DNA of 64,000 nt. Source: Balanoglossus misakiensis (lineage: Eukaryota; Animalia; Hemichordata). The stretch covers positions 11,996,875 through 12,060,874 of the forward strand of contig CM082584.2 of NCBI GenBank assembly GCA_040954595.2. The letters are read 5' to 3'. Shown one piece after another: positions 21,362-64,000 of this stretch. Below the pieces are notes generated by a model. The model saw only the letters and a list, made by a program, of their open reading frames with translations. It made no database searches and was not told the DNA's origin. Each line of letters starts with the position of its first letter. Within the stretch, counting starts at the first letter, position 1. A program made the position numbers and the translations under genes.

Positions 21362-25229
<3,868 letters not shown>

Positions 25230-30856: not shown

Positions 30857-31344
30857 TTTCAAGTCTTAAGTGATATTAAACCCGCACTTAAAAGGAAATG
30901 AACTGAGTAATACCAGTAAATATCTATGCCTCTTACCGCAGTGGAGCTTCCCCGGTGCAGGTACAGATAAAATGAACCTTGAAATTGTAGACTGTCTGTT
31001 CGTAGAAATGGGTTTGGCGCTCCTATTGTTACTAAGTCGCCTAAATTTAAAGAAAAATAATCTATAACATCAAGACAGCTCCTGTAAATGACATTGTCGT
31101 GATATTTTGTAAATTTACTGAATTAAATTAAATTTATTACAAACGTATCTGTTGTTGAATATACAGCGCTGTACGTCGAATAATAGCTCGCCCTCAACGG
31201 TGTATGTTATAGTAAGCGCTATCTCAATGACGTCACAGGGAAACATGGAAATGTAAACACACCTGTTGCCAGAAGAAGACTAGCGTCTATGACAACCATT
31301 TTTAACGCACTTTTATTTCTTTGACGGATCAAGGAGAACCCGAT
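30857..31344. promoter_or_regulatory. Bidirectional promoter region SNF8 / myristoylated Ubl gene with CRE, forkhead and X-box-like motifs
   Basis: 488 bp between divergent ATGs. TGACGTCA 31228-31235, GTAAACA 31253-31259, GTTGCC half-site 31265-31270, degenerate X-box GCGTCTATGACAAC 31283-31296. Confidence 0.55.
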
Positions 31345-36800: not shown

Positions 36801-39800
36801 GTTTCATCTTCTCCTTCAATTCCTTCTTGGCCTTCTCTTCAGGACTTTCCTCTGAAAATACAACAAAAATTCAAAAATTAAACTTTATATTAAACTACAT
36901 GGCCCAGAGATAATTGCTAAATTCTTCAGAGTATATCTGTCACAGATTATGCAATGAACTCTGATCATGTCACTATTCTCTCTTTAATCTCAACACTGAC
37001 CTGGTGGAGGAGTAGGTGCAGGTTCAGCAGAGGGAGCCCTCTTGCCTTTCTTCGGCGACTTGGGCGATTTAGATCGAGCTCTGGGAGAAGCCCCGCCCGG
37101 ACTCTTGCCTCTCTTCCCAGTAGGACTCTTCTTTCCTCCCGGACTTTTCCCTCTCTTTCCGCCTTTCTTTCCAGCTGCTGCTGCCTTCTCTTTTTCCTTC
37201 TCCTTTTCCAGTTCTTTCTGCCTCTCTGCTTCTTCTTCAGCATCCTTGGCAGCTTGTTCGGCAGCAGCCTGGAAAAATGTGAGAGCATTAAACGAAAAAC
37301 GGAAATCAGTGACTGAAAACCCGGCCATCACTGAGAGTCTGTGGCACAGTTCATGGGGAAGCTATACTGTCTCAAAATGGAGGCTGACAGCAGAAAGCAG
37401 CAATCAGGGGAAAATACCAACTCAAACAAACAGAACCAAGACAAAACAGGGAACATAAAACAATAATTGAGAAATGTCACCATGTCTACCCCTCAATGTT
37501 TTTTTATTTCCCACAATCTTTTCCCTCCAACTTTCAAAAAACCTTACATTCAATAATTAATTATAACCTTACAACGAATTAACATTTGTACCCTCTTTTG
37601 CAATTAGACTGACACCAACATGGAAGTCCACCTCCCAGTGGTGTCTCTTCTAGACTAGAATATATTTATCAAAAAGGGTGGAAAATTTAACAAAACTTAA
37701 CACTGTTATCGTTACCACCACAGTAAGGGGAAATTGTTGTAAAAGAAACTTAGGTGGTATTCTGTGCAGTATCAATGATGATATGCATGTGCATGCATGT
37801 TCTCTGATTTGCCCGTATAAACACATGCGGGAACAGCTATGAATGAAGTAGTCAAGGCTCTAGACACACTTGTGCACTACATCTCATTTACAAGTCAGAT
37901 TGCGATCACAGCCACAGTGCACAGAACAGAGTCTAGAGTCTCGAATCTAACTGCAGCTCCATGCAATGAAGGGATATTTTTACTGCCTCAATCCCATGCT
38001 TATCACCATGAAACACAGAACACAACAATGATAAAAAAAACATTCTGCGGTGACCAAACACACAATTTATGCTTTACTTAAAACACAGTCCTTAAAACAA
38101 GCATGCAAAGCTATAAACTTTACTTTAAGAACACACAAACACAAGAGCTCCAAGTATCAAACCAGGAAGCACTATTATTTCTCGGTGACATAAAACAGCA
38201 AATTTGATCAATAAATGACTGTGGTGGTAGTTGGAACCCCTGTGTTCTTTTGTACAACGATATATACACATATTCATGCACTTACCAGATAGCATCGTAT
38301 GCAGTCACTTGACTAAATTAGTGTGCAAGCATTAATTGGACACAAGACAACGGAAAAAGACAGACAAAGACAGTGGTGAAATACGAATACACCAAAAAGT
38401 GCAATTACGAAAAATCAAAATCACATCAGGAAGTAAGTCATGAGAGAAATTGAAAAGAGAGTTACACATTCCAGATGCAAAATGTTTTGGTTTGTTTTTG
38501 ACAAAAAAGATTTTCCCATAAACGAGAACTCATGGGATGAGGATCTTTAATTTAACTTTTTTAAAAACATGCTAGTTCATTTTTGTCATTTTTTGCATAA
38601 CAACAATTGCTGTTGAAGAAAAACGATGTTTCAGTGGGAAAGTGTACTAGGACACCAGAATTTTTTTACAGTATAAAGCCAGACACATCATTATATTCTT
38701 TAAAAATGTAAATGAACAACTAGACAAACATTGCCCAGTGATGCATTCTCCACACCAGCGATCAATTTCATTATCTACACCATAGATTTATGAGACAATT
38801 TTAGCGGCCAATGATCAAAGCAATCCCTGCTGTACCCTAAAAACAAAACAACAATTTGCCCGGTGATCGACCTTTTAACTAAGAAAGCAGAAAAGCTGAC
38901 CCTAAAAAAGCATGTTCTCAGAAATCAAATGTATGATTGTTGTTAGATGGTTAGTCTTGCAGTGGTGCGACAACTGTGGTTACAGTGAAAAGTCGGTAGA
39001 GTTGTTGACACCCAAATCTCACACACTGTGTAAAACAGGACAAATTGCAAACATGCTTACCATTTCTGTCACTTTGTAGACAGCAAAGTTATGTGCTTCA
39101 AAGAGAATCTATCAGGGAAAGAAAACAAGTACATGTAATCAGATGTTTCAACATTTTACGGCTAAGCAATTAACCTATTGTCTCATCAATACATGTACTT
39201 CTCAGTACATCTACACTCTTCCACCATAAAAAAGCAAGGAGTCACCATCACAGAATCCCACACATCCTAAAAAAACTCACCCTTTCATCGGGATCACTGG
39301 GTGGCTGAGGAGTTTCCTGACTATCATCCAGCATTCCAGCGCCACCCTTCTCCTTCTCCTTTTCCTTCTTTCCTGCACGGCTCTTGTTTCCTTTGTCTCC
39401 CTTACCAGCGGAAGCCTGAAGTGGGAAGAATCCCTCCGACGAGGTTGGGCGTCGAGGGACAAGCGGAATTCTGGAAAAGCAGGAAAGAGGAAATGAATAT
39501 CCCTATACAGTAAGATATGCTTTCATAAGGGCAGGATTATAATTTACACAACTTTGCAGAGTTGAAAACAATTTTCAAATCACTACAGAACAGCCCAATG
39601 ATGCAAGTAGCCACGGCAATGAGTAGATTCTTACCTCGATTTCTTCTCATCGTCATGATCTTCATCATCATCGTCTTTGCCTTTCTTTCCTTTAGCTGAG
39701 GTCTGCGATGGTGTCTGTGGCAACCCGGACTCGCTGCCGGTCACACTTTTGGCTGACTCCGGTCGTTCGGTCACCGGCAGCTCTATCAGTGGTATTCTGG

Positions 39801-42800
39801 CGTACTCTTCATTCAGTTCATCAGGTATTTTGCCTTCCATGCCGTTATAGTAATCTCGCAGCAGACGTAGAGTGTCTTGGTATCTATCAATTTCACTCTG
39901 TTACATTAACAATAACGGAACAAGAGAGTTATCAGCTTGACAATATAGCAAGCACGCATCAAAGAGGGAAAAATACTATTTTTTGTCTGAATTTAACATC
40001 ACAAAGTCCCCAGGCTGAAAATTTTGCCAATAATATTAACCTTTTGCCCCATATCCCTTGTAAATGGTTCCAAAGTACCCTATGTATCAACTGGACAAGG
40101 TGACTTGTTTGTTTACCTGCATCAATGTAACATAGTGGTTTGTTAGTAAGCCCATTCTGTCCTCTAACCATCCTTCCTCCATCACCATTTTCCTCTCATT
40201 CTCCGCATCTTCTTTTCGGGTGTCACAGATATCCCATAATTTTTCTTTAAGATCCTGTTCACGAAGGGGGGGGGGGGGAAATGAAAACAAAAGATTCAGG
40301 TTGTTTCAGTTTGAGCCACTTATGGTAATGCTCTGAAATGGTAGCAGCTTCCTTGGAAGCCAGAGATATTTCCCAAATGCAAGTGTGGCACTAGTCTGAG
40401 ATACATGCATGCGAGCGTTGTTTTCAAATGCCTTCATCAAATCAACGAAACAAAGGAAATCTTCACCTCAATTCTTTTATGCAACTCCGCTTTCGTCTCT
40501 TCGTCCTCTCTCATATCATCCGGGACTTCGTTGTAATCATTCTGCCACTGTGTTACAAACTCCTGCTTTATATCCGGCCTCTTCAGGAAATCCGCAAAGA
40601 CGTTGCGGATCCTGTGGAAGTAGCGGTAAATGTTCTCGCGTTCTCCACGCACTGCACGGAATACGTGCTTGCTGCAGTTGATGTAGGATGACTCCACAGT
40701 TTCCCAGTGTGGGGCCAAGATATGCGCCAGCTCCTACAAGAGACAGAACCACAATAATTGAGTATGTAGGAAAATAATGTTACTAACGGCTGAATGCCAC
40801 GATTACTATTTTTTCTCACAGCCCTAGCTGAAAGGTACAAGAATATGGATCCTACTAACCGGATCGATAGCCTCATCCACATATTCCCAGTCTTCTGATC
40901 CGGGCTGCGGTGGTGGGGGACCAGGTGGCTCCAGGGGTTCCGGTTCTGGCTCTGGTTCCGGGGTCTTGGATTTCCTTCCAGACTTCCCTCTCTTTGGAGA
41001 TTTGGATTTTTCTCTCTTGGGAGATCCTGGATTTTGTGATTCACAGAGTAAGCATAAGTCAGTTATCATTATGGTTTGATGCAGTGTTGGTGTTAATTGC
41101 ACTGTTAGTGTTTATGATCTATACTTATGTCAATGTGTTATGTTTTTTTGTGCAGGGTGTTAAAATTCCATCTTTCCTGTTAATGCCTCTTTTTGAAGAA
41201 AAGAATTGGGATTTTTTTGTTTGCCGTGTGAGTACAGCAGAGATGCATATAACTCCAGTGGTTAATGTGTAAAGCTTGCTTGTGTCAATTGTTAGGTTTG
41301 GATTTGAGGGTTGATTGTGGTATGTGGTTGTTATGCTTGGAAGTTAGAAGTGAGAATGTGATTTTACACGCAAAGGCTTTAAAAGTAGAGTTGGTTTTCT
41401 ATGTGGTCAACCATATCACCCCAGAATTCCTGCACAGTGCGATTTTTCTTGTCTCGCCATGGGCAGATGTGATCTACGGTGTTCTCACTAAATGTCACTT
41501 TTCACAGACAACTGACAGGTACGTTGCCTATTCTTTTCTGTGAGGCAGGACAACTGGGGCGAACAGGTTAAGTGGTATAGGTAGACTGATGTGCTTAGGA
41601 ACCGCAGCTTGCATTGCGTGTGACACCAACTTACGTGACTTCTTTCCTTTAGCTTTGTCTTTTCCTTTGTCTGCTGAGGTACGTGCATGCATTGTGGGGG
41701 GTAGGCGGTACAAGAACAGGGTTAAAATACAAATACAGGGCGGGATACATTAAAGGTAAAAACCACACAGCAACAAGGGTAAAGGGTGGGGCAGCAACAC
41801 CACACAACACAGAGCAGATAGACCTTTATAGCTATACAAGTCATCAGAATGATGTATGTGCACTAAAATGCAGAATCACTTAGATTTTTATCAATATTTT
41901 CCACAACAACAAAATAGAGCCAGTACATCCTTAATTGTCATTTGGCAGACACACATTCAGTGGATGGTGCATATTCTGTGTATAAAACTATGAACTATGT
42001 GTACAGTTTGACAGAGTGACAGGGCAGTCCTGCCAAAAGATAAAACACTTTATTTATAATACACAAAGTGTGAATACTATTATTGTCAAAGTAGCAAAAT
42101 CCTACAGGTCAGTAAGAAATAGTTGAGTGTGCATACAAAATGTTTCATATAAGCCACAAGTATGTGCATTTATCAACATGTAGTGCTTGTCAAGACACAT
42201 TCAAAATTTACCAATGTGACTTTGACATCTGGCCCATTACTACTGCATCAATACAAAGTCTTCAAACCTAGATACAGTTTCGTACAGTCCAGATATATAC
42301 GGCCAAATTCCAAGTCAACATTTCAATACATCAGTGCATCAACTTACCCTTTCGGTCACCAGACGGCGTTCTCTTGGGACTACCGGCACGTTTAGGGCTG
42401 GCACTACCACTCCGTTTCCCCTTACCACTTCCCTTTGGCGAGCCTTCTCTCTTGGGTGATCCTGTCCTCTTCGGGGAACCTCCCCTCTTTGGAGATCCTC
42501 CTCTTTTGGGGGAGCCACCCCTCTTGGGAGAACCTGTATAACAGTGAATCAATGCTTATTCACATGGAACATTAACCAAACATTTTCCTTCAACATCCCT
42601 GCAAACAGTTCAGTAAAAGTATTACTAACGAAAGACTAGATCAAGTTAAAAAGGTACAAATGCATTCACTTACCACCTCGAGAGCCTTTCTTGGAGCTTG
42701 GTCTATCAACGCTTGCCTGAAATGAACCACAATGGTTGATGAAGGCAATATTAACACAATGTATACACATGGTACGCCAAATATCAAAATGACAATTCTG

Positions 42801-45800
42801 CCAAGAACACACACCTAATACTAATTTGTTTATTAACACACACACCTGTACATCTGATGCCTGTGGTGCCAGAGAGTCCTGGCCCTCGGTTGGTTGTTCC
42901 GATGATGTTAAGGCTGTGCTTGCTCTCTCGGCCTCAGCCTTGGCTGCTGCTTCGGCCTCCAACTTCTTTCTCACCTCTTCCTCCTTGGCGGCCTCTCTCT
43001 GAGAATGTAATTTGAATAATACATTACTCCATCTGGCCACAGTCTAGAAATCAGCTTTGTGATTGTCTAAACACAATTAACTGTTCTCCTGATCAGCTTT
43101 CACTGTCAGTATGGTCACTTGTCATATCAAGACAAACTCTATGTGAACTTTACCCTAGCAAAGAAGTCATCCAGAGCAAAGACCGCATTCTCATACGCCG
43201 TATCTCTGTCCTGATTTGCATCTATCTTGGTCAAACTGCCGAAACCGTTGAACCATTTCTCCAGTTTCTTCCAGGAGTCTAAAAAGCCAGTTATCCTGGA
43301 GTGGGAGGGAAAATTGTATGGATCCATTAATTGCATTGTCTGTTTCAATGTGTTGATATTATAATTAGACTGCATAGTAACCTAACCTTAACAACAGCAA
43401 CAATGAGAACGCATAAAAACGGACTGGTTTTCAGAAAATAATTGACCATACCTATGTTGCACTTGTTCTTGATCATGCGCCTCATCCTTCACAGGGATGA
43501 CTTTTTCCTGTTTGCCGATGCCTGTCATACTGCCCTCTGGTGGAGGGCGGTACTCTTGTTGGTATTCTTCATCACCTTGGACGGCCACTTTTTGGTAAAA
43601 AAAAAAAACAAGGAAAAAAAGATTCAGACATGACAAGAAAGTCAACTGATTTAAATTCTAAGCTACTAAAATGTTTGTTTTGATCAGATTCTGTCAATTG
43701 ATAAGCATTGTAACACACACAATTGAATAAGAGCAATTCTGAAGATAGTTTAAAAGAATCACGCTAGTGAGGTAATCATGGCAACCAAAATATCCTGGAT
43801 GAGCTTACCTTAAGATGCAGACATGCAAACGAGTCACACAGAAAACAAAATGACTGAGATATGATAGACAAGTACTTTAACTGAAAACATTTAATTATGA
43901 AAGGAACACCAGCTGTGGAAATGAACAAGTAACATACAAACAGTGCAACACCAACACCCACCATATTAGGAAATAAACAGACTTTAACATGCATTTCAAC
44001 CACACCATTCAAAGATATCCCTTGGGCAAAATATCTAATACACAAATCTGGTACAAGAAACATACAAACCAGACAGATAGTGACAGGTATATCACGGTGC
44101 AGGAAAACGAAAAACATACAAGCGATTCTTTAGCTTAACTTACATGTTCGACCAGAGGCCCTCCTCAGTGCTATTTCATCATCAATGTCAAACAAAACAA
44201 CGACATCGATAGCACTCACAGGCGCAGGTGGCTCCTTGGGCGGGTGAGGGTCCTGGGCCAATCGGCTCTTCTTGGTCTGAGACCTAGAGGGCCGTGCGTT
44301 GGCATCGTAGCCACTGAGAGCTTTCTCCAATAGCTTAGCTTGAGCGATGGTTGATGGGAAACCATCCATGATCCAGCCAGTTCCTTCCGGGACTCGCCTG
44401 TTAAATGTCAATAAAAAGCAAATTTCCATCACAATTTATACAAACATGTATTTATAAGCAGGTGGGCAAAAGTACCACTCCATGACTCACCTTATAGCCT
44501 CAACCATGATTTCAATGAGGAGATCATCTTTGATAGGCTGTCCCTTGCGAAGGAACGTGGTGGCTTTCTTCCCTAGCTTAGCTCTAGGAGTAAGCTGCAA
44601 TAACAATTAACAGAGATTCCAAATCAGATACGGAAGGTTTAGAAACATCTGGTTATACAGGTCTGGGATCAAAACATTGATTCACTAACAAACATACACA
44701 CACACACACCTCTGGCTTAGGAGCTGTTTTCTTCCTGGGTGTTTTCTTTCCGGACTTTCCTTGTGATCCGGCAGTTTGAGGCAAACTCTCACTCTCTTTG
44801 ACTTCCACGGGGGTCGTTCCAGTTCCTTCTGCCGTGTCCGGTTTCTTCTCCGGGTCTGCATCTTAAAAAATTATTTTCAGAAAATTATCATACTATCACA
44901 CTATCAGATATTTTACATCTGTGTTGATATTCTGCAAGGGGCATCATGTGTGATGTTATGTGAGGTGACCACCCCTGGAAATCCTCCATAGGTACAACCT
45001 CCCTACTGTGTTTATATGTGTGAGTGGCTCATACCATGGTGAACACAGGGGGTTCAGGGGTAATGTTTAGTGTGATAAATTGATATCAATCCTATAGACA
45101 TCTAAGAGAATCTATACTCATGTACAGTTTATGAGGGATCATATGATTCAAGATCTAAAATGCTGAAATCTGGTAGAGATTCTACAGAAAGTCTATTGCT
45201 AATTATAATGTATGATGTTTAAGAGCTTTGTACTGAATTCATATTAATCTCAGAGAGTACAATGTTAACATTTTCTGAGATTTTCTTGTTAAAATTAGCC
45301 AGAAAAATATTTGTGGATTATTGTGAATGGACAATGGAACTGATGAGTAAATCCAACATGATCCAAGAATGATGGTGCTTGATGAACATAACTTTTCAGT
45401 GTTTGATCACCAAATTCACACCAACATCCATGATCACTTCACACTAACCACCATCCCACTCTCAGAATGTCAGTTAACATTAACCCCTTTCACCACTTTG
45501 GTTTAGTCCAAATTCACTGTTTTCAATGATAAAGTTGGACCTCAGCAGGGGAGAAGTGGGTGGAAGTGTTAAAAAACATTCCTCGTCGGGAGAGTGAAAC
45601 AGTATAAAAAACACAACATGCAAAAGGCATGCATGTAAATATTGGACAGCAAAATTCAATATCAACAACTCTGGTAATCATTCCGAAACTTTAAGATTTT
45701 AGATAAAATAAAAGCCAAAAGAATTACAATGATCAACTTGAACACTTTACTAGGGACAGCCAGTGACAAAAAACACCCTGGACCAGATTATGCAAAATTT

Positions 45801-48800
45801 AAAGCCAATAAGCTCAAACAGAAATATGGCAAATACATGCTACAGTTGCAGTGTTAGGTACCACAGATGTGGCTAGCCAAATAAGAAAAGTCTGTGGCAT
45901 TAAAATGCACAAGAAATGCTCAAAGTCAAACTGCACATGCTATACTGAGGAAGTAGGCATACTTAGGCAAACTAGCAGAAAATGTGAAGCCAGTTATAGG
46001 TCAACTTGAAGCTAGCCAATAGCCACTGACCAGCACCACAGTGCAAGCTCATGGCTGTACTGACAAGCAAACTAAGTTCATTGGCAGTCAATGAACTTCC
46101 CATGCTCATCATCGCTCCACAAAAGCCATGCCAGTTTCAATCATGCCTAGCACAACCAGGAGACGGTTTTTGAGTCTACCTGTTTCTTTTGCCTCGCCCG
46201 CTTTCTCTTCAAGTTTGTTACTATCCTCCTGCATTGGCGAGGCTTGCCCTTGACCTTGGTCTGGTAACTGCTGTGTCTCAGTGAGATTAGGCGTAGGGGG
46301 AATAACATTGACTAGAGAGAGAACATCCACCATGAGAAAAACACACAAAAGCCAGGTAAATTAAACAAAAGTAAAAGACGAAAACAAAAAGACATTAAGA
46401 GATAGAGAAAGAGAGAATAATTGAGTTTAATACGGTACATGAAGTGGTGACATCTTCACCTTTTCACCCCCATTTTCTGAACATCCCATTGTTTCCAGTG
46501 GTTTGGTTGGACCAGTCCACTGGAAAATGGGGGTGAGATGGCCGTGGTCACATTGTTGAGGTTAGTACGTGCAAGACAAAAGTCATAGTTTAGAAGAACC
46601 AATACCACATTATTATTACTACACCAGTATTATACTTTTTGTTGCAATGGGCACTTTGAAAGCTTGACTTGAACTTTGCAGACTTGATGTGATTTTAATA
46701 CTACATGTACATGTGTGGTCACATATCTTTTCTTGTCATACATGAAAATTCTGAGAAGCAAAACAGAGCAGCTGATGTTGACAGGCTAATACTCTGAGAT
46801 CCGTACATTGATATTATTCCATGCTATCAAACATCAGCAACTTTGCTAGGTTTTTTTCTCCAGAATTTCCATGACAAGAGAACACCTTTGCCAATAGTAC
46901 AGTCACTGTATTTTATTCCAAAACCAGACCAATAACTCTTTGTTTTGGTTTTGAAACAGGGAAGGCTTTTTAATTAATGTAATTATTCTTGCTGGGCAGT
47001 GTCAATTGTGCCTAAGATACATATTTGTCATCTTTGAAAGTTCTACAATACTCACTTTGATTAGATACTACACTACCATATTTGTGGGTGTGTGGTTGGA
47101 TAGTGAGTGTGAAAAAAGGGGATTGTGTTATTTACTTTTTGTGTTAATCAGGACAGAGGTTTTGTACTTGTAACGGAATATAAAAGAGGTATTGATATCA
47201 AAGGACCTATTAGTTGTTAAGTGAACTTGGAGGTGAAACAAAATTGGAAAAAAGGTACAAACGTTACAGAAAACAAAGTGTGAAATAATAAGACTGAAAT
47301 GTATGAAAATATTGAGTTAATTATAAACAAGTCATAAAAGAATAAACATAAACAAACAAAAACTGAGAATATCTATAAACATGCACATATTAGTAAAATT
47401 AAAAACGTAAAACGCATGCAGTATTTAAATGAACAACACATATTTGAACCAAACATAAAAGTGCCTTACTCATGTGTGTTGAATTGTTTTCGCTTTTATG
47501 TGTATCAGTGTGTGTGTGTGTGAGTGTCGATGTGCATCTCTTTGTGGGTGTCTGTCAGTGGTTTTGGTTCCCTTTTGAAGGTAAAAGCTAGGGGCAATAT
47601 GTACATTGTATGAGACAGATTCTTTCATACAATACATAAATAGGGGTTGGGGGTCAAACGGCAAAATCTGGTTTTACACCATACTCCACAATATGCCAGC
47701 AATAGGAACTTACTTTCTTGTGAGGATATGACTTCTGTTGCTTGTCCCTCTGCACTTGTAACTCCGCCCACCTCAGCTCCGCCCTCTTCAACATCAGCTT
47801 GCTGAAACAAAATTTGACAGTATGATCGTTAAATAGACGAATATGTTATCTTTGTGTACAAAATAAAAAAGTTTCTTATGATTTTTTTCACTTACAGCAG
47901 TGGGATCTGGTAATTCCAAAACTTCTCCATTTTTAAAAGCATCTACGGCTTCTGCCACCAGCTTGTCGATATTCAGGGCTTCCACACGACGCTCTGTTCA
48001 AGAAGAGGGAAAGGCAAACATTTAGGAAGTAGAGAATAATGGCATTGCAATATTAGAGACTGTTTCATGCACTCAGTTTATGACCACCTCAGGTAATTTT
48101 TTTAGGATGAGCTATTGATGCTTACTGATGTAAAGAATCTGTTCAATTTCTAGAGACATGCTAAGTTCATTAGTTGGTTTTGCAAACTGATCCAATGTGG
48201 ATAATAGTCTCTCACCTCCCAACAACCTTTGCAGGGCTGTTGTCTTTCCACTGAAAAGTTTTCCTAGGAAGCACGCCTTAATCGGGAAAGGTGGAAACTC
48301 TGGTGCTTCAGGAGGAGGCTGTGAAAATAGGCACAATGATTAATTGTCATGCCAACAAGAAAATATAGAAAATGAATTGTAAGAAACCTAGAATACTTAC
48401 TGAGGGAGGATGTACAATGTCAAATAATCTCTTGATAATGTGTCCAAGAATCGCATTGTTTTTGGGAGGACCTTTGACCTCTCCATCCTCAGGGGGCTGC
48501 CACTCTTTAACCATATTCTGTCACCAAACAAAGAAAACAAATTACTTTCATGGAAGAAATGTTATTTTGTTGAAATGTCTACAATTGCAATGGCAACTCT
48601 GATGCACAGAGTTTAAGGTTTTACATTGGAAACATCTCTTTACACTTACTTTGTATTCCAAGAAATCTCCTTCGTCAAGAAGTTGTTGTCTTTCTTCTTC
48701 CAGTCCTGTATCTTTGTCAGTTTCCTCGACGACCTCAACTTCCTGTAAGAAAAACAGCAAACATCTCAAAATACAGATATTGTATTTTGAATCAAATTCT

Positions 48801-51800
48801 CAAATCCAGTATACTGACAGTTTAGCCAAACTTACTTATTACACTTAGAAATAAGTTGGCAGTACCAGTGCTGGACAGAGAGACAAAAAATAACATCAAA
48901 TAAAAATATTGTACCGGCAACGTAGAAGCATGCATGTGATCTTACCTCTGGTTCTTCGTAGATAGGTTTGCCCTCTGTGAAGAGTAATGTCCAATCTCGC
49001 ATCAGCTTTGGTGGCAGCAGCCTGCAATGACAGTAATGTGTCATTATGGACATTTCCTTTATTAGACCAGTTAATTTCGTTTATATCCTCATAAAGTTGT
49101 CCTACTGCCTGTGATCCATTTGAAGGGAAAACTTACTTGTCTGTGAGATCCCTGTATTCTCCGACCTTGCACGAGAAATCCACAATCTGCAGGAGGATCT
49201 CCATGCAGGTCTGGTAGTGTTTGTTGTACTTGGCCTCAGCCCTCTCTGCGGCTATCTTGTCATGTAGTTCTTTGTCCTTGCGTGTCTGTTCAGCGTACTC
49301 CACTTTGGCTAGTCTGGCCATCTCCTGCAGGGATGAATCAGTTTGAGAAATTGTCACGTCTACTATATAGTACCTAGGCTAGGAGCTCATTCAGGCTAGC
49401 CACAATCAAAACCCCCCCCCCCCCCCCCCACCCCTATGATCTTAGGATCATAATACGAACCGCTATACCACACAAACCACGCAACACCACACACAAAATG
49501 CACAACATTTATTGAACGAATCAGCTTACAGCTTCTCTGTTCAAGGCATCGAGGAAATCCTTCATTCGTCTCTCTTCGTATTGCTTCTCTCGGAATATTC
49601 TGTTCTGTCGGATGATTTCCTTTTCGTGCCTGGCTTGCAGCAACTGCACAGCGATGCGTCTCTCTTGCTGCGACTGCCGCATCAGACGATTCACCAGCAT
49701 TTCTTCACGCCTTGCATCCTACAGGAAAGGAGTCAATTACGATGACATTATCAACTTTTTTTTTCCAAATAAACTCCCTGTGGTGGCATTAGTGTCAGGG
49801 ACTGCTTCCTACTGGGACTTGGAAAGATACTGTAGAATGTGTTTTGTTGAAATCCTGAGACTTATTTTCTACCAGTACCACAATTATAATGAATTAAAAT
49901 AAAATAAGCTGAACATTCATCGCACCTCCTGTGTTTCATGCGCTTTCAGTTGATCGACTAAAACTTTTCTCCTTCGTTTTTCTCTCTCTTCTCTGGCAAC
50001 GGAATCTTCTTGCAGACGTTTCTTGATCTTTCCAATGTATTCATCATTGGAACCAAGCTAGTGATGGGGAAAAAAGGATGAGAATAGATCATCATATGTT
50101 GTGGTTGTCAGAATCAGCTGCCTGCAATCTTAGAAGCTCTTTCATTGGATGAATGACTGATTCCTAAGGAGCAGAGATATGACAATAAAGCCAAAGTTTA
50201 CCTTGAGTAGTTCAAGTTGTTCAGATTTGGGTCTTTCAGTTTCCTCCTTGATGTATTGTATTAAATCTTCATCCATATCCCTGAATGAAAGTAAAATTCA
50301 ATGGCGTGTTTCCATCAGGTCAACATTAAAAAAGGTTTCTTGTTTTACTTTTAGATGAAAACAATCTACTTTATTTACTTCAATGGACAAGTTTTCAGAT
50401 GTTTAAGCAAGACTTTTATCCCCACTGAAAGAAATGTATGATGGCCAAGTGACTTACATGTCATCTCCTGATGGAGGAACCACACTCTTCAACTTCATTT
50501 CAAAATCTGCAATCTGCCGTCTGGTCAGGTCTGCTTCTTGTCTCTTCCGCAACTCTTTTCTGAGACTGATGGCTTTCAGGGTCTTGTTTGGTGGTGGCTT
50601 TGGTATGTGCACTGTTGCAGCTCTACACACGGAACAGATGGAGAAAAGTGGGTGTAAGAGAGAGAGAACAAAAATACAGGGGTCCAGTGGGTTGGCCAAC
50701 TTTACACTGAGAATATATCTCATAACTTTGAACTTACTGAAGCCTGGCCACCATTTCAGTCCTGGTCTGTCTCAACTGACGTGCTTTTTCTAACTCTAAT
50801 TCTCTCTGTTCCTGTTGCCACTTCCGCAGGTTCTCCTCAGCTTCATATCGGGTCTGGAACTCCACTTCAATGTGCTCCTTCTTCTTTTCCCGGAATTTAT
50901 CAACAAGTCCATCCAGATCCAAATCGGTCTGACGAGGAGTCATATGTTTTAACCTCTGGAAAGAAAAAAACCAGTACATTTCAACTATTGTTATTGATAT
51001 TTCATCAGATGTATGTTGGTACAAGTCAATAGTATTTCAAACCCTCTGGCCATTTTCATCTCCATACATGTAACATACAGTCACTGTGTTCGGATACAAG
51101 TCAAATACACATAAATGACAGGCACCTCAATGTACATGGCTCGCTCCATACTCTCTAACTTGACCGGAGCCGATGGCCTCATGGTCTCCATAGCCACTCC
51201 GGTTAGGTTGGACTTCTTCTTATTGTTCAGTGCAATGAAGAGCTGGTACATGATTCTCGTTGCGACGCCTTGCTTCTCCGTCATGATGTCTCGGGCGATG
51301 TTGGTGTCGAAGGGCACACCCAGAAGATGCAGCGTGGGTTCCAGGCGGGTGAAGTTGTTGAGCCTGGAATCAGTCGTTCTGCAGAGGAATTGTGAAGGAA
51401 TCAATCAAAGTACATGTACCTCAAAATGAGAGTCTACTGACTCTTGAGATGAAACAGAAACAGTTATCATAAATATTGATGACATAACACTTACAGTGAA
51501 GAAAACTGATAATGTAATGTTTTAAATGACAAAATTAAAATCTTACCTGCTCTTAGAAAATGCGTCAAAGTCATCCTGCAGCTGATATTTCTGCAGGACC
51601 TCGCCAATCAGATAACCAGTGGAAAACTCCTTGGCAAAACTATCCGCCTCTGCAGAAATAATTATCATCATGGATGTAATTATAAGTGAGAGTGTTGTGT
51701 GTCATTTAGACAGGGCCTGGAGGGATTCACCCCCTGCTGACACCCCCTAGCAATTTGTCAAGGGAAGACCAGTGCCCTTTAAAATGATGTCACTCACATG

Positions 51801-52662: not shown

Positions 52663-52820
52663 ATGTTTCACAAACCATTCCGCGTAAAATCAAACACAAC
52701 AATAAAAGGATCTGACAGGTTAGTGATTTTTGTTCGAATTACTACAAATGAGTACCATATTGTTATAATGAATGCTACATGATGATGATGATGATGATGA
52801 TCATGATGATGATGATCATG

Positions 52821-52853
<33 letters not shown>

Positions 52854-55800
52854 ATGATGATCATGATGATGATCATGATCATGATGAAATGATGATGATA
52901 CATTGCACTATTTATTATTTTACTTTTAGACGCAAACTGAAAGCTGACATTGGAAACCAGTTTCCAAGTTTGTCTGAAACTGACCTGCGTGATATAATTC
53001 CAAATAAGGATGAGATGTCTGTCATGAAACTGTACACCCATGCAGGGCAAAATGTAATTGCATACTGTCTTCACAAGAATCCAATTTTCTTCGAGGTTGA
53101 CAAACGACTATTTCCAACAGGTATGTTTTTTCAGTTTGAATCCTTTACATTTATGAACTATGAAATGGGGTAAGTTATAACATAATATCAAACTGACTAT
53201 TGTTCCGTATTACTTTGCAGTGTACACAGTCTGGAAGTATCCTGATATAATTCCTGTATTTTCAACATGGCCTACGGTCTTTGGGAATTTAGCCGGAGGT
53301 GCTGGTAGGTATTTATCACTTTGCTATCAGACTGTATCAAATAACAAACTAACTGACGATGTTTTCAGTGGATGTGTTCTACTACTGGATACTTAATCTT
53401 CAATTCTGGTCCATTCTGGTTCTGTTTCAGATTTAATGTTACCAGGGGTTGTTCCACCACCAGAAGGGCTCCCACAAGTGAAGAAAAACGACGTATGTGC
53501 CATCAACCTTGTTGGCAACAGGGCAGCCGTTGCCATAGGAACAGCTACCAAGTCAACAGGAGACATGCTAGATGCTGGGATGAGAGGCAAAGGTATATTG
53601 GTGGCCCACACATACCAGGATCAGTTGTGGTGAGTTGAGGAGATAGTTCTTTTACAGTTGCCAACACAGAAAAGAAGTACTTTATTCAGATGCTAAAATC
53701 TTATCATGACATTTAATTGTAGGAGCCATGGTGATAAAACAGGACTTCCAGTAATCGCTATGGAAACAGCGGAAAAGTCAGCTGCCGAGGCACCCAGTGA
53801 GGCCGACGCGTCACAGACCGTGGCTGAAGAAAGGGCGGAAGGAAGTGAGGCCCCTCCTGCTAGTGACTTTGAAAACTTGGCCGTTGATGACGCACAGGCA
53901 CAAGTGGCAGATGTGGGAACAAGTGAGAATGTGAAAGGAGAAACTGATGACCTTGAAGTTGGTGCTGTTGGGGGCACAGAGGAAAGTGAGGTCAATGACC
54001 TTGAGGAAGAAGACAGCAGGACTCCAACAGGTAGAGACTATGAAAGTTATCGATTTTAGAAGCAAGCTGAAATCAGGCATAGTAGGTGTATTACTCATAA
54101 CAGTACTGTATTTAACGTTTAATTTTAAACACACACATTTCAGAGCAAGCTATCCAATATATATTTACATTATTTTCTCTCTCTCTCTCTTTGGTTCACA
54201 GAACGGATGGATGATTTGTTGTACACATGCTTTTTGCATGCTCTCAAGACAAATGTGAAGAAAACTGATATCCCCTTACTTACCAGTAAATTCTTCAGGT
54301 CACATCTCCTTGCTGTCTGGTAAGAAATAATGCAATATCCAGTAACATAGACAGGAAGAGGACATGCTGAACTGTCAAAAAAAGAAACCATACTCACTGA
54401 AACTTAAGCAATACACAACCATTAAAAGTCAAATATTATTAATTGCCACAACTTATATTTTTGCAGCCCACCAGGTGAAGTTCTGGACATCAAGAAGTCA
54501 AGTTACAAGAAATTGTCCAAGTTTCTGGGAGCAATGGCTAAAAAGGGACTGATAGCCATGAAAGAATTACAGAAAGGTGTTGACAGCATTGTGGAAGTTC
54601 GCAAGGATCACCCAGAGTATGTCAACCTCTTTCCCCTCTGAAGTCTATTATATGATCTCTTGGCACAATACTCATTTATGATATTTCATTTCTTTGTATG
54701 AAATTCTAATAGATATTTCATTTAATTTGTAGAGTAAGACACTTCCAGGTGCCCGATTACAGTACTGAATTGGCAGAAGAACCTGCAACAGCGCCACCAA
54801 GTGGCGAATATGTTCCTCCTGAAATCATTGAGCTGCACAGTGTCAACGCAGCCACGTTGCCACTCTTCCAATCACTCGGCTACAAGTAAGAAATAAATTT
54901 CATATTGTAACTCATATCTGTAAATGAACACACTGCAAAACTACGGAAGTAAGGTGTGGCAAAAAACAGTCTCAAAACCATCTGACTTGAAATGTTTCTG
55001 GTTTCATGCTCTGTCCCATGTCAGTAGACACTTGACAAAACTTAACCCTACATACCAAACAATTTTCTCTGTGCTTATATTTTTGCAAAGCTCATGAAGC
55101 TGTATTGTATTACTAGGTTCACACTCTTTGACCTATGACCTTCATGACATGAAAACAATGTAAGATATCCGTTTCCACGTCTTGTATTGAAGGAGGTTTC
55201 AATCATGAACATCTACACCAATGTTATCAGAAGCCTTATTTATAAATGTATAATGACTCTGTCAAACAGTTTTAATTTCATTTCAGGAAAGGTGCCTGGT
55301 TGACACCTCTCGAAGTGAGGAGTGTGATCACTGAGTATGTCAAAAGCAATGAGCTGGTTGATAAAAGGTAAACACCTCTAATATTAACCTCGCCACCCCT
55401 GTCTTCACATACATGGGTCCAAGTCACGCCACTGAACCCAGATGGATGAAATGGTCACTCTTGATTTCACTTTGGACGCTGTCCAGACATGCATATGTGG
55501 TGATTTTATGATGGCAGACTCAATAAGAGTTGTCAAGAGTCACAGATGAATGGTCAGTGTCCCTGGGGCATTCTAAGGCTTGTTAGGACAACCTGGGGAG
55601 GGGGAGGTTTTGGGTCAGTACTCTGTGTATGCAGCAATTTAAAATGCAAGAATTTTATGCCCTGGGCCGAGAATCAACACACCATACTGTTTACCCAAAA
55701 TAATCATATTTTCATTTCTGTTCAATTTCAGCCAAGTTGTGATGAATCCACAGTTGACAGACGCTCTGCTACGCAAAGATGAACACCACATCACACATCT

Positions 55801-56745
55801 GCGATGGGACGAAGTCTTCCAAAGGTAGAGTGTTTTAATGTAAAAAATGCTTGGATTTGTGATCTGATGGTCGTGTAATCAAAGGCCGGTTGGTGTCAGA
55901 GGTTCAGATGGGGAAAGTGCAGCAAATCTCATCTGTCTGAAGCACACTAAACAAAACTTTTCCCATTTTCCTCTACACTTTTCCCATTAGGTGTTACAAC
56001 CAAATGGGGTCAGGGTATCAGCTTACGTTTCCGGGGCAACCACAACTGAGAGATGGTGGTGTCAAGAAAGGTAAACTGCCAAGTATAAACATCAACACAG
56101 AGCAGAGGACAGGCAACAAGAAGGTAATTATCCCTCTCCCAAGTTGTGGTTGATTTCACATATTGCCAGTGGTGATTCTACAGTGAGGTCACCCGCCATC
56201 AAACACTGCATCGTACATTCCAGAAGAATGCCTCCATCCAAGCCACAAAACTCCCAACCTCCTCTATCTTTTTTTCCTTTCTTCAGGTGACGCTGGTTCA
56301 GAATCTTGAGACGTTTGGCATCGACCCCAAATCATTTGCGCACAAAGTTCAAGTCGGGGTCGCGGCAAGCACCGCCATCAGTGCAATAGCGGGAAAGACG
56401 ACTGGATCACAGGTCCTCATCCAAGGCAATCAAATCAACTATGTCGCCCAGTTGCTTCTAGGTAGGAAAGGTTTCTGTCAAACTCAGGAATTCCTGTTGG
56501 TCACATGCCTTTTGGGACTAAAGAATCCTGCCAATACCAGAATGTGCAGTACCAGGATGTACGACCTACTTTATAGTACATGCAAATGTCAAGCCTATGC
56601 CTACAGCAACTGAGTCATAAACTGATAATTTATTACACCTGTCACATATGTCTTTCTACCTTCTGTTGCAGACGAATATAAAATTCCTAAAAAGTACGTC
56701 CAGGGATTAGAAAAGGCCCCCAAGTCGGGAAAGAAGAAGAGATGA
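52663..56745 (+). CDS. EIF2D: Eukaryotic translation initiation factor 2D (ligatin; PUA, SWIB, SUI1 domains), multi-exon
   Basis: MFHKPFRVKSNTTIKGSDR|RKLKADI, PTVYTVWKYP, GGADLMLPGVV, LDIKKSSYKKLSKFL, SUI1 domain QRTGNKKVTLVQNLETFGIDP...VLIQGNQ, ending IPKKYVQGLEKAPKSGKKKR-TGA. Confidence 0.96.
52778..52899. repeat. (GAT/CAT)n trinucleotide microsatellite in EIF2D intron 1
   Basis: ~40 triplets of GAT interspersed with CAT between the GT donor at ~52719 and the AG acceptor at ~52929. Confidence 0.92.
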
Positions 56746-59700: not shown

Positions 59701-61506
59701 TGAACAAATTCCTACCACTTTGCATTGTGAAAAAGTAATATCAACGTTTTAGCGCCTTCTCCGACTCTCTGTGCCTGAAATATTTGATAAACAAAGTGTT
59801 GTTCCCTGAGAACCTGCGCAAAATACGGATACTGGATCGTCTATTGCGACTTGCGTTCGTCAACCAGACATGCGCAAAATACACAGCCTTTTCAAACCTT
59901 CATCTGCCGCATAGTGGTATAATGATGTTATTGTCACATGATCGTAGAGAACTAGTTTTCGGTCAAAGACCCGTGTGTCACTGTTCTGCTAAAGTGTATC
60001 GCGGGAGAAAGTGAGACTCTCTTGTTCGGCTCACCTAGTCTAGAATTTTCCTGTTCGGCTTAGCCTTGTTTTTTTTCTCATTTGGCACCATTCTTGACCA
60101 TGCTTTACAAACAAGTCATGCATGCGTGCTTATGTGTGACCGAAACCATCGTCAAAACAACGCGTGTTTGAGTTGCGCTGCACTTGAAGGTATGAAAGTC
60201 CGTTCACTGTGCTAAGATCTCAATGAACCGCGTAATTAATAATTCTCCATATTCGTGGTTTTATTCCTCGTCTGTGGAACAACGCTATAAGCCACAGTCA
60301 CGTGTAAACTGGATAGCCGTCTTGGGGGATAGACTGCGCTATGTCTTAGAAATATTCCACCAGAAATGTGCCTCCGCCCAATGGGGGGAGGGGGAGAGAT
60401 GTGGCTCTGACTGCACGTGCTGTGCGTAATAAGACTACGTATAAATCGCCCTTGCCCTTCGTTAGAAAAGTCGTTGAACCAACAAGGTTACGTTCAGGTT
60501 TGCACATAAATATCGACAATAACGCTTAATAGATAGTATTCTCCCCTGCAAATTCAATATGGCGAGGTAATTAGTACCACTTAGCCTTTATACAGGGGTC
60601 CTAACAACGAATGATAAACATTGAATACAGGCATTATATGTGCTAGTACGACGTGACACTTTCCATCATTGCTGAATGAATAATCTTGTTGACGTCATCT
60701 TATTAGAAGGCCAAGTCGCTGTCGGGGTCCACCTATATTATAAATGGAGTAGCAATGGAATTATAAAAAAATCATGAGTCAACAATTCTGTGTTGCTACC
60801 AGGAATTGTAAGAATTAACCCCCTCCCCCCATTTCACATTTGAAGACGAGCCTAGATCAGTTTCAACCTTGACGTCAATGTATAGTACGACTTGTCGTTG
60901 AATTGTTGATCTTCTTGATGCGGACGTCATCTTATAAGAAGTTCAAATCGCGGGCGGGGTCTGCTCATGGTGAATGAGTTGGAAAAAAACACCTCATGTA
61001 AACAAATTACTGTGAGGCATTTGCTTTCAGACTGGTATGTGAATATCGATGTTGGCTTTTGAACAACGACTGATTTGCGTAAATATAGTTGGAAACTTTG
61101 TAAGATGGCCCGACACTAAAAGACATACCAATAACCAAAATAACGTTTAGGGATTTTGTATTTCTGGTGTAGGTCTAAGTACAACTTTAACGCGATTCCG
61201 CGTGTTTTATTGAGCGAATGTCAAACTGACTTCTCATATTACAGAAATAACCAAGACAGTGTCAAAGGATCGAGGCTTTATGTCTATCTGTTTATACTCT
61301 TCAAACTGTAAAATGTCTCATTTTGGTTAGCCTTCGACCTATGGTCAAAATTTGGTGGCATTTTCACCCGACATAGTAATCTTATCCGCAGCCCCTGTTT
61401 GTTTATTTATTTTCAGTTGCTGCGCGCTGTATTCAAACCTGTTGAGAACTAACCGAAAGTATTGTCGACTCTTTTTCAGGTAATACATATCCGAATAGTT
61501 ATCGAC

Positions 61507-61542
61507 TGACGTCATCGCCAGAGAGGGCGTTGCGCATATAAA
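61507..61542 (+). promoter_or_regulatory. Core promoter of the triple-Ubl gene: palindromic CRE plus TATA box
   Basis: TGACGTCA 61507-61514 followed by CATATAAA 61535-61542, ~160 bp upstream of ATG 61700. Confidence 0.6.
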
Positions 61543-61699: not shown

Positions 61700-62494
61700 A
61701 TGCTTTGCGAGGACATATCGCAGCAAGCGGTCGCCCCGGTCAGTGTGACCGTGATCACACAGTGGGGCGATGAATTCCCGTTCACCATCACCGACAAAAA
61801 AGTCGTGGACGATGTCAAAGCCCTGGTGGAGAAGAGAACCGGGGTAGAACGCTGCAACCAGATGTTGACACTGGACGGCCACCGGGTTCGCAGCAGCGAC
61901 AGTTTAAAGAGCCTTGGAGCGAACCCGGATAGCTGCTTTCGGGTCTATGCGGGGAGAGACTCGCAGGGCAGCATAAAACTGCGGCTAAGGAGTCTGGCGG
62001 CCGACGAGAAATGTCTGCAAGTAGATCCCATGCAAACAGTGCTGGAGTGTAAAGAGTTGTACGAAGAGAGAACGGAGATACCGTGGAGCCAAATAGAGTG
62101 CGTTTACGATGGACAGATCATGGAGAACAATTTGACTCTCCTGGACTACAAAGTCACAGCCTCCTCCATCGTCCATGTCGTTTTCAGACACTTTCCAATC
62201 TTCATCTGGACGCAACAGCACAAGTTCTACAGCATGCGAGTGAACGCCAAAACCACGGTTTTGGAAATCAAGGCGAAAATCTACGAACACGAAGGCGTGG
62301 AAATTAAAGAGCAACGGCTGGCGTACAGAGATTTTGAAATGGAAAACGACATGGAACTGGCGTATTACCATGCTGCCAAACCCAACGCCGTGTTTCGTCT
62401 TTTATTGAACGGGGTGCCTTTGCCTACGGGCGATCAGCGCAGTGATGTCGCTCGGAAAAAAGCTACCGAGCCGGAACAGTGTACAATCCTCTGA
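61700..62494 (+). CDS. Intronless 264-aa protein: three tandem divergent ubiquitin-like domains + C-terminal CaaX (CTIL)
   Basis: Three ubiquitin-fold repeats: VDDVKALVEKRTGVERCNQML, TVLECKELYEERTEIPWSQIECVYDGQIMENNLTLLDYKV, TVLEIKAKIYEHEGVEIKEQRLAY. No LRGG motifs; ends KKATEPEQCTIL-TGA. The first ATG is at 61700 (the ORF track starts at an upstream TTG). Confidence 0.88.
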   Translation: MLCEDISQQAVAPVSVTVITQWGDEFPFTITDKKVVDDVKALVEKRTGVERCNQMLTLDGHRVRSSDSLKSLGANPDSCFRVYAGRDSQGSIKLRLRSLAADEKCLQVDPMQTVLECKELYEERTEIPWSQIECVYDGQIMENNLTLLDYKVTASSIVHVVFRHFPIFIWTQQHKFYSMRVNAKTTVLEIKAKIYEHEGVEIKEQRLAYRDFEMENDMELAYYHAAKPNAVFRLLLNGVPLPTGDQRSDVARKKATEPEQCTIL

Positions 62495-63060: not shown

Positions 63061-63128
63061 GCCAAGACAGGGAACAGAACAGCCAAGAGAGAGAACAGAA
63101 CAGCCAAGACAGAGAACAGAACAACCAA
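63061..63128. repeat. 21-bp minisatellite, ~3.2 copies
   Basis: GCCAAGACAGGGAACAGAACA / GCCAAGAGAGAGAACAGAACA / GCCAAGACAGAGAACAGAACA / ACCAA. Confidence 0.85.
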
Positions 63129-64000
63129 AACAATCATGAAAGCTATAAGACAGCTCCTAACTCTACATCTGATTTTCATCAGATTGCCCGACAGCATTGC
63201 CAAACCTTACCACAGAGGAGCAATTCGTCTGATGGAAGCGTTTTGCGTGGCCATTTTAGAGATGATTGTTCTAAGAATTGAACGAAATAAGCGCACAAGC
63301 CTGGGAAAGCCATCTCAGTGACGTCATTGTTATGTAAATATGACAAAATGCCTGTCCAGAGACGATGACGTCTCCTAGTGACGAAACGCACAAGTTGTAC
63401 TCTTTTTAACTAAATGCACAAAAATAATTAAAACGCACAAAAAGACAAGTAGCCAAGTATTATTACATGGATTTTCAAGACACCGAATTGAATACAGACA
63501 AACAACAATTGACGAAGGCATCCGTACTGGATACAGCCTGGTGTCTGGTCTTTATAAAACAATTAAATAAAATTTGATAAACGTGATTCTTATATTCTGA
63601 GTGGTCAAGTTAGTTATTACAACTATTATTCTGATCTTGAATATATTGAATAGTGATCGGTAATTTATTAATTTTATTGTTTGCAGTTTTGTTGGGAATT
63701 TTGAATTGATTCATGGTGATGTGTATATATATTTCATGTTTATCGTGTTTTTTTTATTTATTTTACTGTTCAATAAATGTTATTTGATGTGCTAATCAGC
63801 ATCTTAAGTGCGTTTTCTTCAATAACAAATGGATGCAAAACGACAAGTACACCGCTGGGAGGTAGTTGTTTGCACACACGACTGTACCTTACATTCTACG
63901 CTGCGAGGCTGATCATTTGAAACTACGGATAATTTGAACCCAATAATAGATTGGTGTTAATTTCACACGGCGAGATATTATCCATGGAGCAACTCTCGTA

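What the first reader, a model, noticed from the sequence alone, without database searches (positions are those of the whole stretch)
61700..62494. Prenylatable triple ubiquitin-like protein without di-glycine motifs
Seen: three mutually divergent Ubl domains, no LRGG sites, a short basic linker and terminal CTIL. Established: CaaX ending in Leu is a geranylgeranyltransferase-I substrate; UBL3/MUB proteins have one Ubl plus CaaX, whereas ISG15 and FAT10 have two Ubls and end in GG. Three Ubls plus CaaX fits neither. Inference: a membrane-anchored, non-cleavable mimic of a linear ubiquitin chain acting as scaffold or decoy, or a UBL3-like cysteine-linked modifier.
Basis: partly seen in the sequence, partly recalled or inferred. 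Interest (0 to 1): 0.75.

Follow-up and report, generated by a model that had tools for sequence, protein, structure and literature searches.

The report
Acorn-worm triple-ubiquitin protein with lipid anchor
Acorn worms share a conserved gene for three fused, divergent ubiquitin-like domains ending in a lipid-attachment signal, which would likely pin the protein to membranes, where its middle domain is predicted to dock ubiquitin-handling proteins; we found no description of this arrangement.

Summary
Confirmed and real. The single-exon ORF 61700-62494 (+) encodes three ubiquitin-family domains with no GG and ends in CTIL. Five relatives were found, all in acorn worms (Ptychodera, Glandiceps, Saccoglossus), in two paralogous groups. 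All 5 keep a CaaX (CTLI, CTVI, CSIM, CTLQ, CVLQ) while the tail before it diverges. Variants in DNA runs of one sample are 13 synonymous to 3 non-synonymous (pN/pS 0.06), so this is not a decaying polyubiquitin. It is not UBL3/MUB: there is no second Cys and no lap-bar loop, and the domains score as ubiquitin/NEDD8. A linear-chain mimic is doubtful: junctions are 2-3 residues longer and 3 shorter than polyubiquitin, and only the middle domain keeps the Ile44 patch. That domain also carries three MUB-like substitutions at positions MUB uses on the E2 backside (mapping inferred, post hoc). Best reading: an independently evolved, prenylated, non-conjugatable membrane adaptor that docks ubiquitin-binding machinery through its middle domain. 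Prenylation, partners and expression in this species are untested, and the patch may be buried between domains. Ten literature searches found no description. New variant of a known kind; interest 0.5.

The parts
61700..62494 (+). Single coding exon, 264-aa triple-Ubl CaaX protein (P0001)
   Evidence: colinear over its full length with three orthologues
61739..61960 (+). Ubl domain 1 (aa 14-87); most divergent, Ile44 patch degenerate (Q8, T44, R68, Y70)
   Evidence: Pfam ubiquitin 32 bits; residue map
61973..62191 (+). Ubl domain 2 (aa 92-164); keeps L8, V44, G47, H68, V70 and the Ile36 patch; R6, I49, I66, E42
   Evidence: Pfam 56.6 bits; Z 15.9, rmsd 0.9 A over 75 residues to ubiquitin; residue map
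62192..62413 (+). Ubl domain 3 (aa 165-238); fused to domain 2 with a junction 3 residues shorter than polyubiquitin; 19 positions invariant in all 6 members, several on helix 1
   Evidence: Pfam 47.1 bits
62414..62479 (+). Poorly conserved, predicted disordered tail with a KK pair
   Evidence: 8-38% identity to relatives including the CaaX; pLDDT under 50 for aa 244-264
62480..62491 (+). CaaX box CTIL (predicted prenylation site, Cys261)
   Evidence: Cys kept in 5 of 5 relatives; synonymous variant in the Cys codon
61507..61542 (+). Candidate promoter: TGACGTCA (CRE-type; label recalled) 30 bases upstream of TATAAA; two more TGACGTCA at 60690 and 60870
   Evidence: 5 matches in the window against 0.89 expected, 4 of them within 1.1 kb of the ORF; TATAAA at 61537; function untested

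Best explanation
This is a conserved acorn-worm protein of three fused ubiquitin-family domains without di-glycine motifs that is likely prenylated at its CaaX cysteine and so held on a cytoplasmic membrane face, where its middle domain is predicted to bind ubiquitin-recognising proteins non-covalently. Shown: the architecture, conservation of the CaaX in 6 of 6 members, purifying selection, loss of GG junctions, and retention of the Ile44 patch in domain 2 only. Inferred: (1) prenylation, geranylgeranyl for CTIL and farnesyl for the Met/Gln-ended relatives; (2) no cleavage by deubiquitinases and no activation by an E1; (3) domain 2 exposes its patch and docks a partner, first candidate the backside of a UBE2D-type E2 as MUB does, otherwise UIM/UBA-type domains of proteasome or ESCRT receptors; (4) domains 1 and 3 act as spacer and as a second, family-specific binding surface. 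It would thus work like MUB/UBL3 (a membrane-tethered ubiquitin surface) but likely arose separately from a ubiquitin/NEDD8-type tandem gene.
For: CaaX in 5 of 5 relatives (CTLI, CTVI, CSIM, CTLQ, CVLQ) while the tail is 8-38% identical and domains 2-3 are 39-77% identical. CTIL is described as a canonical prenylation signal sufficient to relocalise OAS1 to membranes (PMC7612834, passages) and as likely geranylgeranylated in an Arabidopsis MUB (PMC10511055, passages); CTLQ is reported farnesylated in DHX32 (PMC7902609, passage). 13 of 16 variants in the ORF are synonymous, pN/pS 0.063, binomial p 6e-7. Domain 2 keeps L8 + I/V44 + H/Y68 + V/A70 in 6 of 6 members; the same test is met by 1 of 36 other Ubl domains at 20-35% identity to ubiquitin and 8 of 153 at 35-50%. 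AtMUB3 binds the E2 backside with R12, G16, I58, S60, G61, I63, V86, H88, V90, Q92 (PMC4996978 section 7); mapped by spacing onto ubiquitin 6, 10, 44, 46, 47, 49, 66, 68, 70, 72 (my inference), domain 2 matches or conservatively keeps 7 of 10, including R6, I/V49 and I/V66, a trio seen in 0 of 36, 0 of 153 and 1 of 388 control domains.
Against: No partner was tested. The patch could be buried between domains: no coordinates were available, and inter-domain confidence differs between models (pTM 0.69; 0.42 for the Atlas model of the orthologue). The control criteria were chosen after seeing domain 2, and control domains are not independent. G10, position 46 and position 72 do not match AtMUB3, Arg42 is reversed to Glu/Asp in 5 of 6, H68 is Tyr in 4 of 6, and the lap-bar loop that MUB needs to inhibit E2 charging is absent. 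Domain 3 has more invariant positions (19) than domain 2 (13), so the main functional surface may lie there. The tail has no polybasic stretch or second Cys, so membrane binding may be weak. The variants come from contigs of one sample and could include a close second copy.
Confidence: 0.55

Rival explanations
1. A prenylated compact three-domain module whose conserved hydrophobic patch is structural; it binds partners outside the ubiquitin system through family-specific surfaces such as the helix-1 face of domain 3.
For: Junction lengths are fixed (11-12 and 6 residues between reference positions in 6 of 6); domain 3 has 19 invariant positions including non-ubiquitin residues (E25, Y31, E32, E49, P64); AlphaFold2 pTM 0.69 despite a disordered tail; R42 is acidic in domain 2.
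Against: Domain 2 also keeps the Ile36 patch, G47 and R/K72 and superposes on ubiquitin at 0.9 A; the Atlas model of the orthologue has pTM 0.42, so fixed packing is not established.
Confidence: 0.25
2. A membrane-anchored, non-cleavable mimic of a linear (Met1) ubiquitin chain that recruits or decoys NEMO/ABIN/OTULIN-type readers.
For: Head-to-tail arrangement; best sequence and fold matches are linear polyubiquitin; domain 2 keeps the Ile44 patch and R/K72, and domain 3 keeps F4 in the 4 orthologues, the pairing that linear readers use (recalled).
Against: The domain 2-3 junction is 3 residues shorter and the 1-2 junction 2-3 longer than in polyubiquitin, with no G75-G76; domain 1 and 3 patches are degenerate; model against tri/tetra-ubiquitin rmsd 13-15 A, domains 2-3 against di-ubiquitin 5.8 A at best, with the caveat that linear chains are flexible and the model's packing is uncertain.
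Confidence: 0.12
3. A UBL3-like modifier attached to substrates through a C-terminal cysteine.
For: Ubl fold plus CaaX; other Cys residues lie inside the domains.
Against: 0 of 6 members have a Cys within 10 residues upstream of the CaaX, whereas the UBL3 orthologues surveyed have one and human and mouse UBL3 use it for modification (PMC10511055, passages); the MUB-type Pfam PF13881 stays below cutoff (16.4-21.1 bits against 23).
Confidence: 0.05
4. A neutrally decaying polyubiquitin copy with a chance CaaX.
For: Single coding exon and tandem Ubl layout, as in polyubiquitin genes (recalled); divergent multi-Ubl proteins are common among the hits.
Against: Intact full-length relatives in three genera and two paralogous groups; position-specific domain groups for D2 and D3 (SH-aLRT 96 and 98); pN/pS 0.063 and no indel in the ORF.
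Confidence: 0.01

Closest known systems
UBL3 / MUB (membrane-anchored ubiquitin-fold proteins)
   Same: Ubiquitin fold, no C-terminal GG, CaaX; an Ile44-type patch (domain 2 here); likely the same working principle of a membrane-tethered ubiquitin surface.
   Different: Three domains instead of one; no second Cys near the CaaX; no lap-bar loop ((K/R)xPFG, 3-7 residue expansion); domains align to ubiquitin without insertions and score far better to PF00240 than PF13881.
ISG15 and FAT10 (tandem di-Ubl modifiers)
   Same: Mutually divergent tandem Ubl domains in one uncleaved chain; ISG15 clusters are among the top Atlas feature hits (0.90) and FAT10/ISG15 among weak hits of domain 1 (E about 0.002).
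   Different: Three domains, no terminal GG, so no E1 activation; CaaX instead. No orthology shown.
Polyubiquitin (UBB/UBC-type precursors, linear chains)
   Same: Head-to-tail repeats in one coding exon; best sequence and fold matches.
   Different: 17-33% identity to ubiquitin per domain; LRLRGG junctions replaced and changed in length; terminal lipid signal.
Other divergent multi-Ubl proteins ending in a CaaX-like tetrapeptide (lamprey XP_078740965 CVIL; unnamed P0073 CVIS, P0151 CLLS)
   Same: Several Ubl domains and Cys at -4.
   Different: 7-9 domains, mostly closer to ubiquitin, the lamprey one keeps one LRLRGG; their domains do not group with this family in a quick tree; Cys at -4 in 6 of 148 hits is near chance, so their CaaX is unproven.

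Membership tests
UBL3/MUB | Single Ubl domain | tested here: not met
   3 Pfam ubiquitin stretches in 6 of 6 members
UBL3/MUB | C-terminal CaaX | tested here: met
   6 of 6 members
UBL3/MUB | Second Cys just upstream of the CaaX (CCaaX or CXCaaX) | tested here: not met
   0 of 6 within 10 residues; feature from PMC10511055 passages
UBL3/MUB | Lap-bar loop, (K/R)xPFG with a 3-7 residue expansion of the alpha2-beta5 loop | tested here: not met
   All 18 domains align to ubiquitin without insertion and lack PFG; feature from PMC4996978 passages
UBL3/MUB | PF13881 profile at its gathering cutoff | tested here: not met
   13.5-21.1 bits against 23 in 3 members, not listed for the other 3
UBL3/MUB | Ile44-type patch able to bind an E2 backside | tested here: inconclusive
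   Residues kept in domain 2; exposure and binding not tested
UBL3/MUB | Prenylation and membrane localisation | not testable with these tools
   Motif only
ISG15/FAT10-type modifiers | Two Ubl domains | tested here: not met
   Three
ISG15/FAT10-type modifiers | C-terminal di-glycine for E1 activation | tested here: not met
   No GG in P0001-P0003; GG in P0004 lies in the tail after domain 3 without LR, and in the paralogues inside a domain
Polyubiquitin precursor | Near-identical 76-aa repeats joined by LRLRGG | tested here: not met
   17-33% identity to ubiquitin; junctions +2/+3 and -3 residues
Ubiquitin family (PF00240) domain proteins | Beta-grasp fold and PF00240 above cutoff | tested here: met

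The most novel reading that the evidence does not exclude
Acorn worms evolved, from a tandem ubiquitin gene, a second and independent membrane-anchored E2 regulator: domain 2 converged on MUB's E2-backside surface (R6, I49, I66) while domain 1 or 3 takes the place of the lap-bar loop, giving a three-domain, lipid-tethered brake or organiser of ubiquitin transfer at membranes, possibly under CREB/ATF control.
Probability: 0.2. Interest if true: 0.72.

Novelty: new variant of a known kind. Interest (0 to 1): 0.5.

Why it matters
UBL3/MUB is the one recognised family of prenylated ubiquitin-fold proteins (recalled; PMC10511055 reviews it). A conserved two-paralogue family that reaches the same design from a tandem ubiquitin/NEDD8-type gene would show that tethering a ubiquitin surface to membranes arose more than once in animals, and it offers a small, testable protein for asking what a non-conjugatable multi-Ubl chain does. 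The limits: it was found only in acorn worms, and the function is inferred.

Tried and rejected
No whole genome is held for this window, so copy number, the second paralogue in this species and synteny were not checked. Expression: no RNA holder listed; this says nothing either way. Relatives outside acorn worms: three word-index searches and one full HMMER search (best 150 of 2660 hits seen) gave none; among those hits the best non-family domains score no better than about ubiquitin itself (49.7/45.9/50.2 bits against 47.0/39.7/51.3; family members at least 120). Distant three-domain orthologues below rank 150 are not excluded, and longer or shorter forms were not searched. Metagenome scan: one locus, L001, a bacterial false positive; viral contigs: none. 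No UBL3/MUB chain appears among the rows shown; the lists are cut and filled by ubiquitin, so this is inconclusive. The domain tree is the quick version, 74 columns, 62 of 99 inner branches open, and holds no NEDD8, UBL3, ISG15 or FAT10 row, so the origin of the domains is not resolved; domain 1 of the two paralogues did not form one group. A predicted complex of domain 2 with domain 3 was not obtained and no E2 sequence was available to pair with domain 2; the wide structural search was not obtained. The sigma-70 scan is irrelevant to an animal gene. Earlier scan findings: none returned. Literature: 10 searches; (tandem or polyubiquitin-like with CaaX) returned 0 papers, and no title or abstract start listed in the others describes this family; subscription journals are not covered and no supplements were read.

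Full report
Observation. The window holds one uninterrupted reading frame at 61700-62494 (+), 264 aa, ending CTIL. It is GC-rich against its flanks (52% against 41% and 36%). Pfam finds three ubiquitin-family stretches, each above cutoff on its own. The domains are 18-19% identical to one another and 18, 24 and 29% identical to ubiquitin. The protein has no GG. AlphaFold2 on a 6-sequence alignment gives three beta-grasp domains (mean pLDDT 76, pTM 0.69) and a disordered tail; domain 2 superposes on ubiquitin at Z 15.9, 0.9 A over 75 residues.

Setting. Neighbouring exons match histone deacetylase, EAP30, CH_2 and ADK, Pre-PUA and SUI1 profiles (6 of 13 fragments plus one below cutoff), i.e. 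ordinary intron-containing animal genes (SNF8, SPEF2-like, eIF2D; names recalled). Nothing suggests a virus or mobile element. The closest relative is from Ptychodera flava, so the window is likely from an acorn worm.

Family. Searches returned five full-length relatives, all from enteropneusts: orthologues in Ptychodera flava (XP_070563810, 66%), Glandiceps talaboti (XP_077981269, 59%) and Saccoglossus kowalevskii (XP_006818563, 56%), and a paralogue in Ptychodera (XP_070537294, 36%) and Glandiceps (P0161, 35%). All are named 'uncharacterized' or 'polyubiquitin-B-like'. All have three Pfam ubiquitin stretches and all five end in a CaaX: CTLI, CTVI, CSIM, CTLQ, CVLQ, although the tail is 8-38% identical and varies from 26 to 41 residues. 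Among the other 148 hits, 6 have Cys at -4. In a quick tree, domain 2 and domain 3 each form one group across both paralogues (SH-aLRT 96 and 98), domain 1 splits by paralogue. The family is therefore older than the split of the three genera, and the duplication older than Ptychodera/Glandiceps. No member was seen outside acorn worms, but only 150 of 2660 HMMER hits were visible. Two RefSeq accessions share the Ptychodera protein, which usually reflects transcript variants and hints at expression (inference); no RNA run was listed for this window.

Selection. Contigs of three DNA runs from one sample show 16 differences in the ORF and no indel: 13 synonymous, 3 non-synonymous, pN/pS 0.063, p 6e-7 against site counts. 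One synonymous change is in the CaaX Cys codon, and an insertion falls three bases after the stop. With the orthologues this rules out neutral decay.

Anchor. CTIL is described as a canonical CaaX, predicted geranylgeranylated, and sufficient to move OAS1 to perinuclear membranes (PMC7612834, passages); an Arabidopsis MUB ending CTIL is likely geranylgeranylated (PMC10511055, passages); CTLQ is reported farnesylated in DHX32 (PMC7902609, passage). Prenylation is thus likely across the family while the isoprenoid probably varies. It was not tested.

Surfaces. Mapped on ubiquitin, only domain 2 keeps the Ile44 patch: L8 (6 of 6), V/I44 (6 of 6), G47 (6 of 6), H or Y68 (2 and 4), V70 (5, Ala in 1), with I36 and R/K72; Arg42 is Glu/Asp in 5 of 6. 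Domains 1 (Q8, T/V44, R/N68, Y/L70) and 3 (A/V44, L70) do not. As a control, 629 distinct non-family domains that cover the positions were kept out of 1391 aligned rows: the patch test is met by 1 of 36 at 20-35% identity to ubiquitin, 8 of 153 at 35-50% and 71 of 388 at 50-90%. AtMUB3 contacts the E2 backside with ten listed residues (PMC4996978, section 7 and passages). Mapped by spacing onto ubiquitin numbering (my inference), domain 2 matches or conservatively keeps seven, three of them (R6, I/V49, I/V66) being departures from ubiquitin in the MUB direction; this trio occurs in 0 of 36, 0 of 153 and 1 of 388 controls. Three positions (10, 46, 72) do not match, the criteria are post hoc, and the lap-bar loop that the paper finds necessary for inhibition is absent. 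Domain 3 has its own invariant set (19 positions, several on helix 1), pointing to a second surface or to inter-domain packing.

Geometry. Counting from ubiquitin position 70 to position 3 of the next domain, polyubiquitin has 9 residues; this family has 11-12 (domains 1-2) and 6 (domains 2-3) in all six members. The model does not superpose on linear tri- or tetra-ubiquitin (rmsd 13-15 A); domains 2-3 fit di-ubiquitin or ISG15 at about 6 A at best. Inter-domain packing is uncertain (pTM 0.42 in the Atlas model of the orthologue), so this weakens but does not exclude the linear-chain mimic.

Mechanism. Most likely (0.55): a prenylated, non-cleavable, non-conjugatable adaptor that presents one ubiquitin-like docking face (domain 2) at a membrane and binds ubiquitin-handling proteins there, first candidate a UBE2D-type E2. 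Rivals: structural module with partners outside the ubiquitin system (0.25), linear-chain mimic (0.12), UBL3-type Cys-linked modifier (0.05), decaying copy (0.01).

Comparison. It fails membership of UBL3/MUB (three domains, no second Cys, no lap-bar loop, PF13881 below cutoff), of ISG15/FAT10 (no terminal GG) and of polyubiquitin. The best single-domain sequence matches of domain 2 are NEDD8 (35-36 bits) and ubiquitin (29-31 bits). It may work like MUB without being one. Other divergent multi-Ubl proteins with a CaaX-like end exist among the hits, such as lamprey XP_078740965 (8 domains, CVIL), but they do not group with this family and their frequency is near chance.

Regulation. TGACGTCA occurs 5 times in the window (0.89 expected; 0 of 100 shuffles reach 5), four times within 1.1 kb of the ORF, one of them 30 bases upstream of a TATAAA. 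This suggests CREB/ATF control (motif label recalled); untested.

Verdict. A real, selected, apparently undescribed acorn-worm family with the architecture three Ubl plus CaaX. Ten searches of the open literature found no description (listings only, apart from the four papers cited). New variant of a known kind; interest 0.5, rising to about 0.7 if convergent E2 regulation is shown.

Noticed in passing
window 1-19162: Very homogeneous satellite: 87-base unit, about 220 copies, 99% matches.
   Followed up: no
window 30113-30865 (-): EAP30/Vps36-family (SNF8-like) gene as one uninterrupted reading frame, with a TGACGTCA at 31228 upstream.
   Followed up: partly
window 22600-23300 (-), 34000-51400 (-), 52700-56600 (+): Exons of a histone deacetylase, a CH_2/ADK gene (SPEF2-like, name recalled) and a Pre-PUA/SUI1 gene (eIF2D-like, name recalled).
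   Followed up: partly
protein P0124 (Lampetra fluviatilis XP_078740965): Eight divergent Ubl domains, one LRLRGG kept, ending CVIL: a possible independent multi-Ubl CaaX protein in lamprey; unnamed P0073 (9 domains, CVIS) and P0151 (7 domains, CLLS) are similar.
   Followed up: partly
proteins P0032 and P0161: The paralogues carry a conserved N-terminal extension (W-x-FRQESYGFIVPP-like motif) absent from the orthologue group, and P0161 has a polybasic KRR before its CaaX.
   Followed up: no
window 60691-60729 and 60923-60961: A 39-base duplication at 85% identity around CRE-like sites upstream of the gene.
   Followed up: partly
window 63061-63200: 21-base tandem repeat at the edge of a high-copy repeat (contig depth in the thousands).
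   Followed up: no
window 52779-52899: Imperfect ATG trinucleotide repeat of about 40 units.
   Followed up: no
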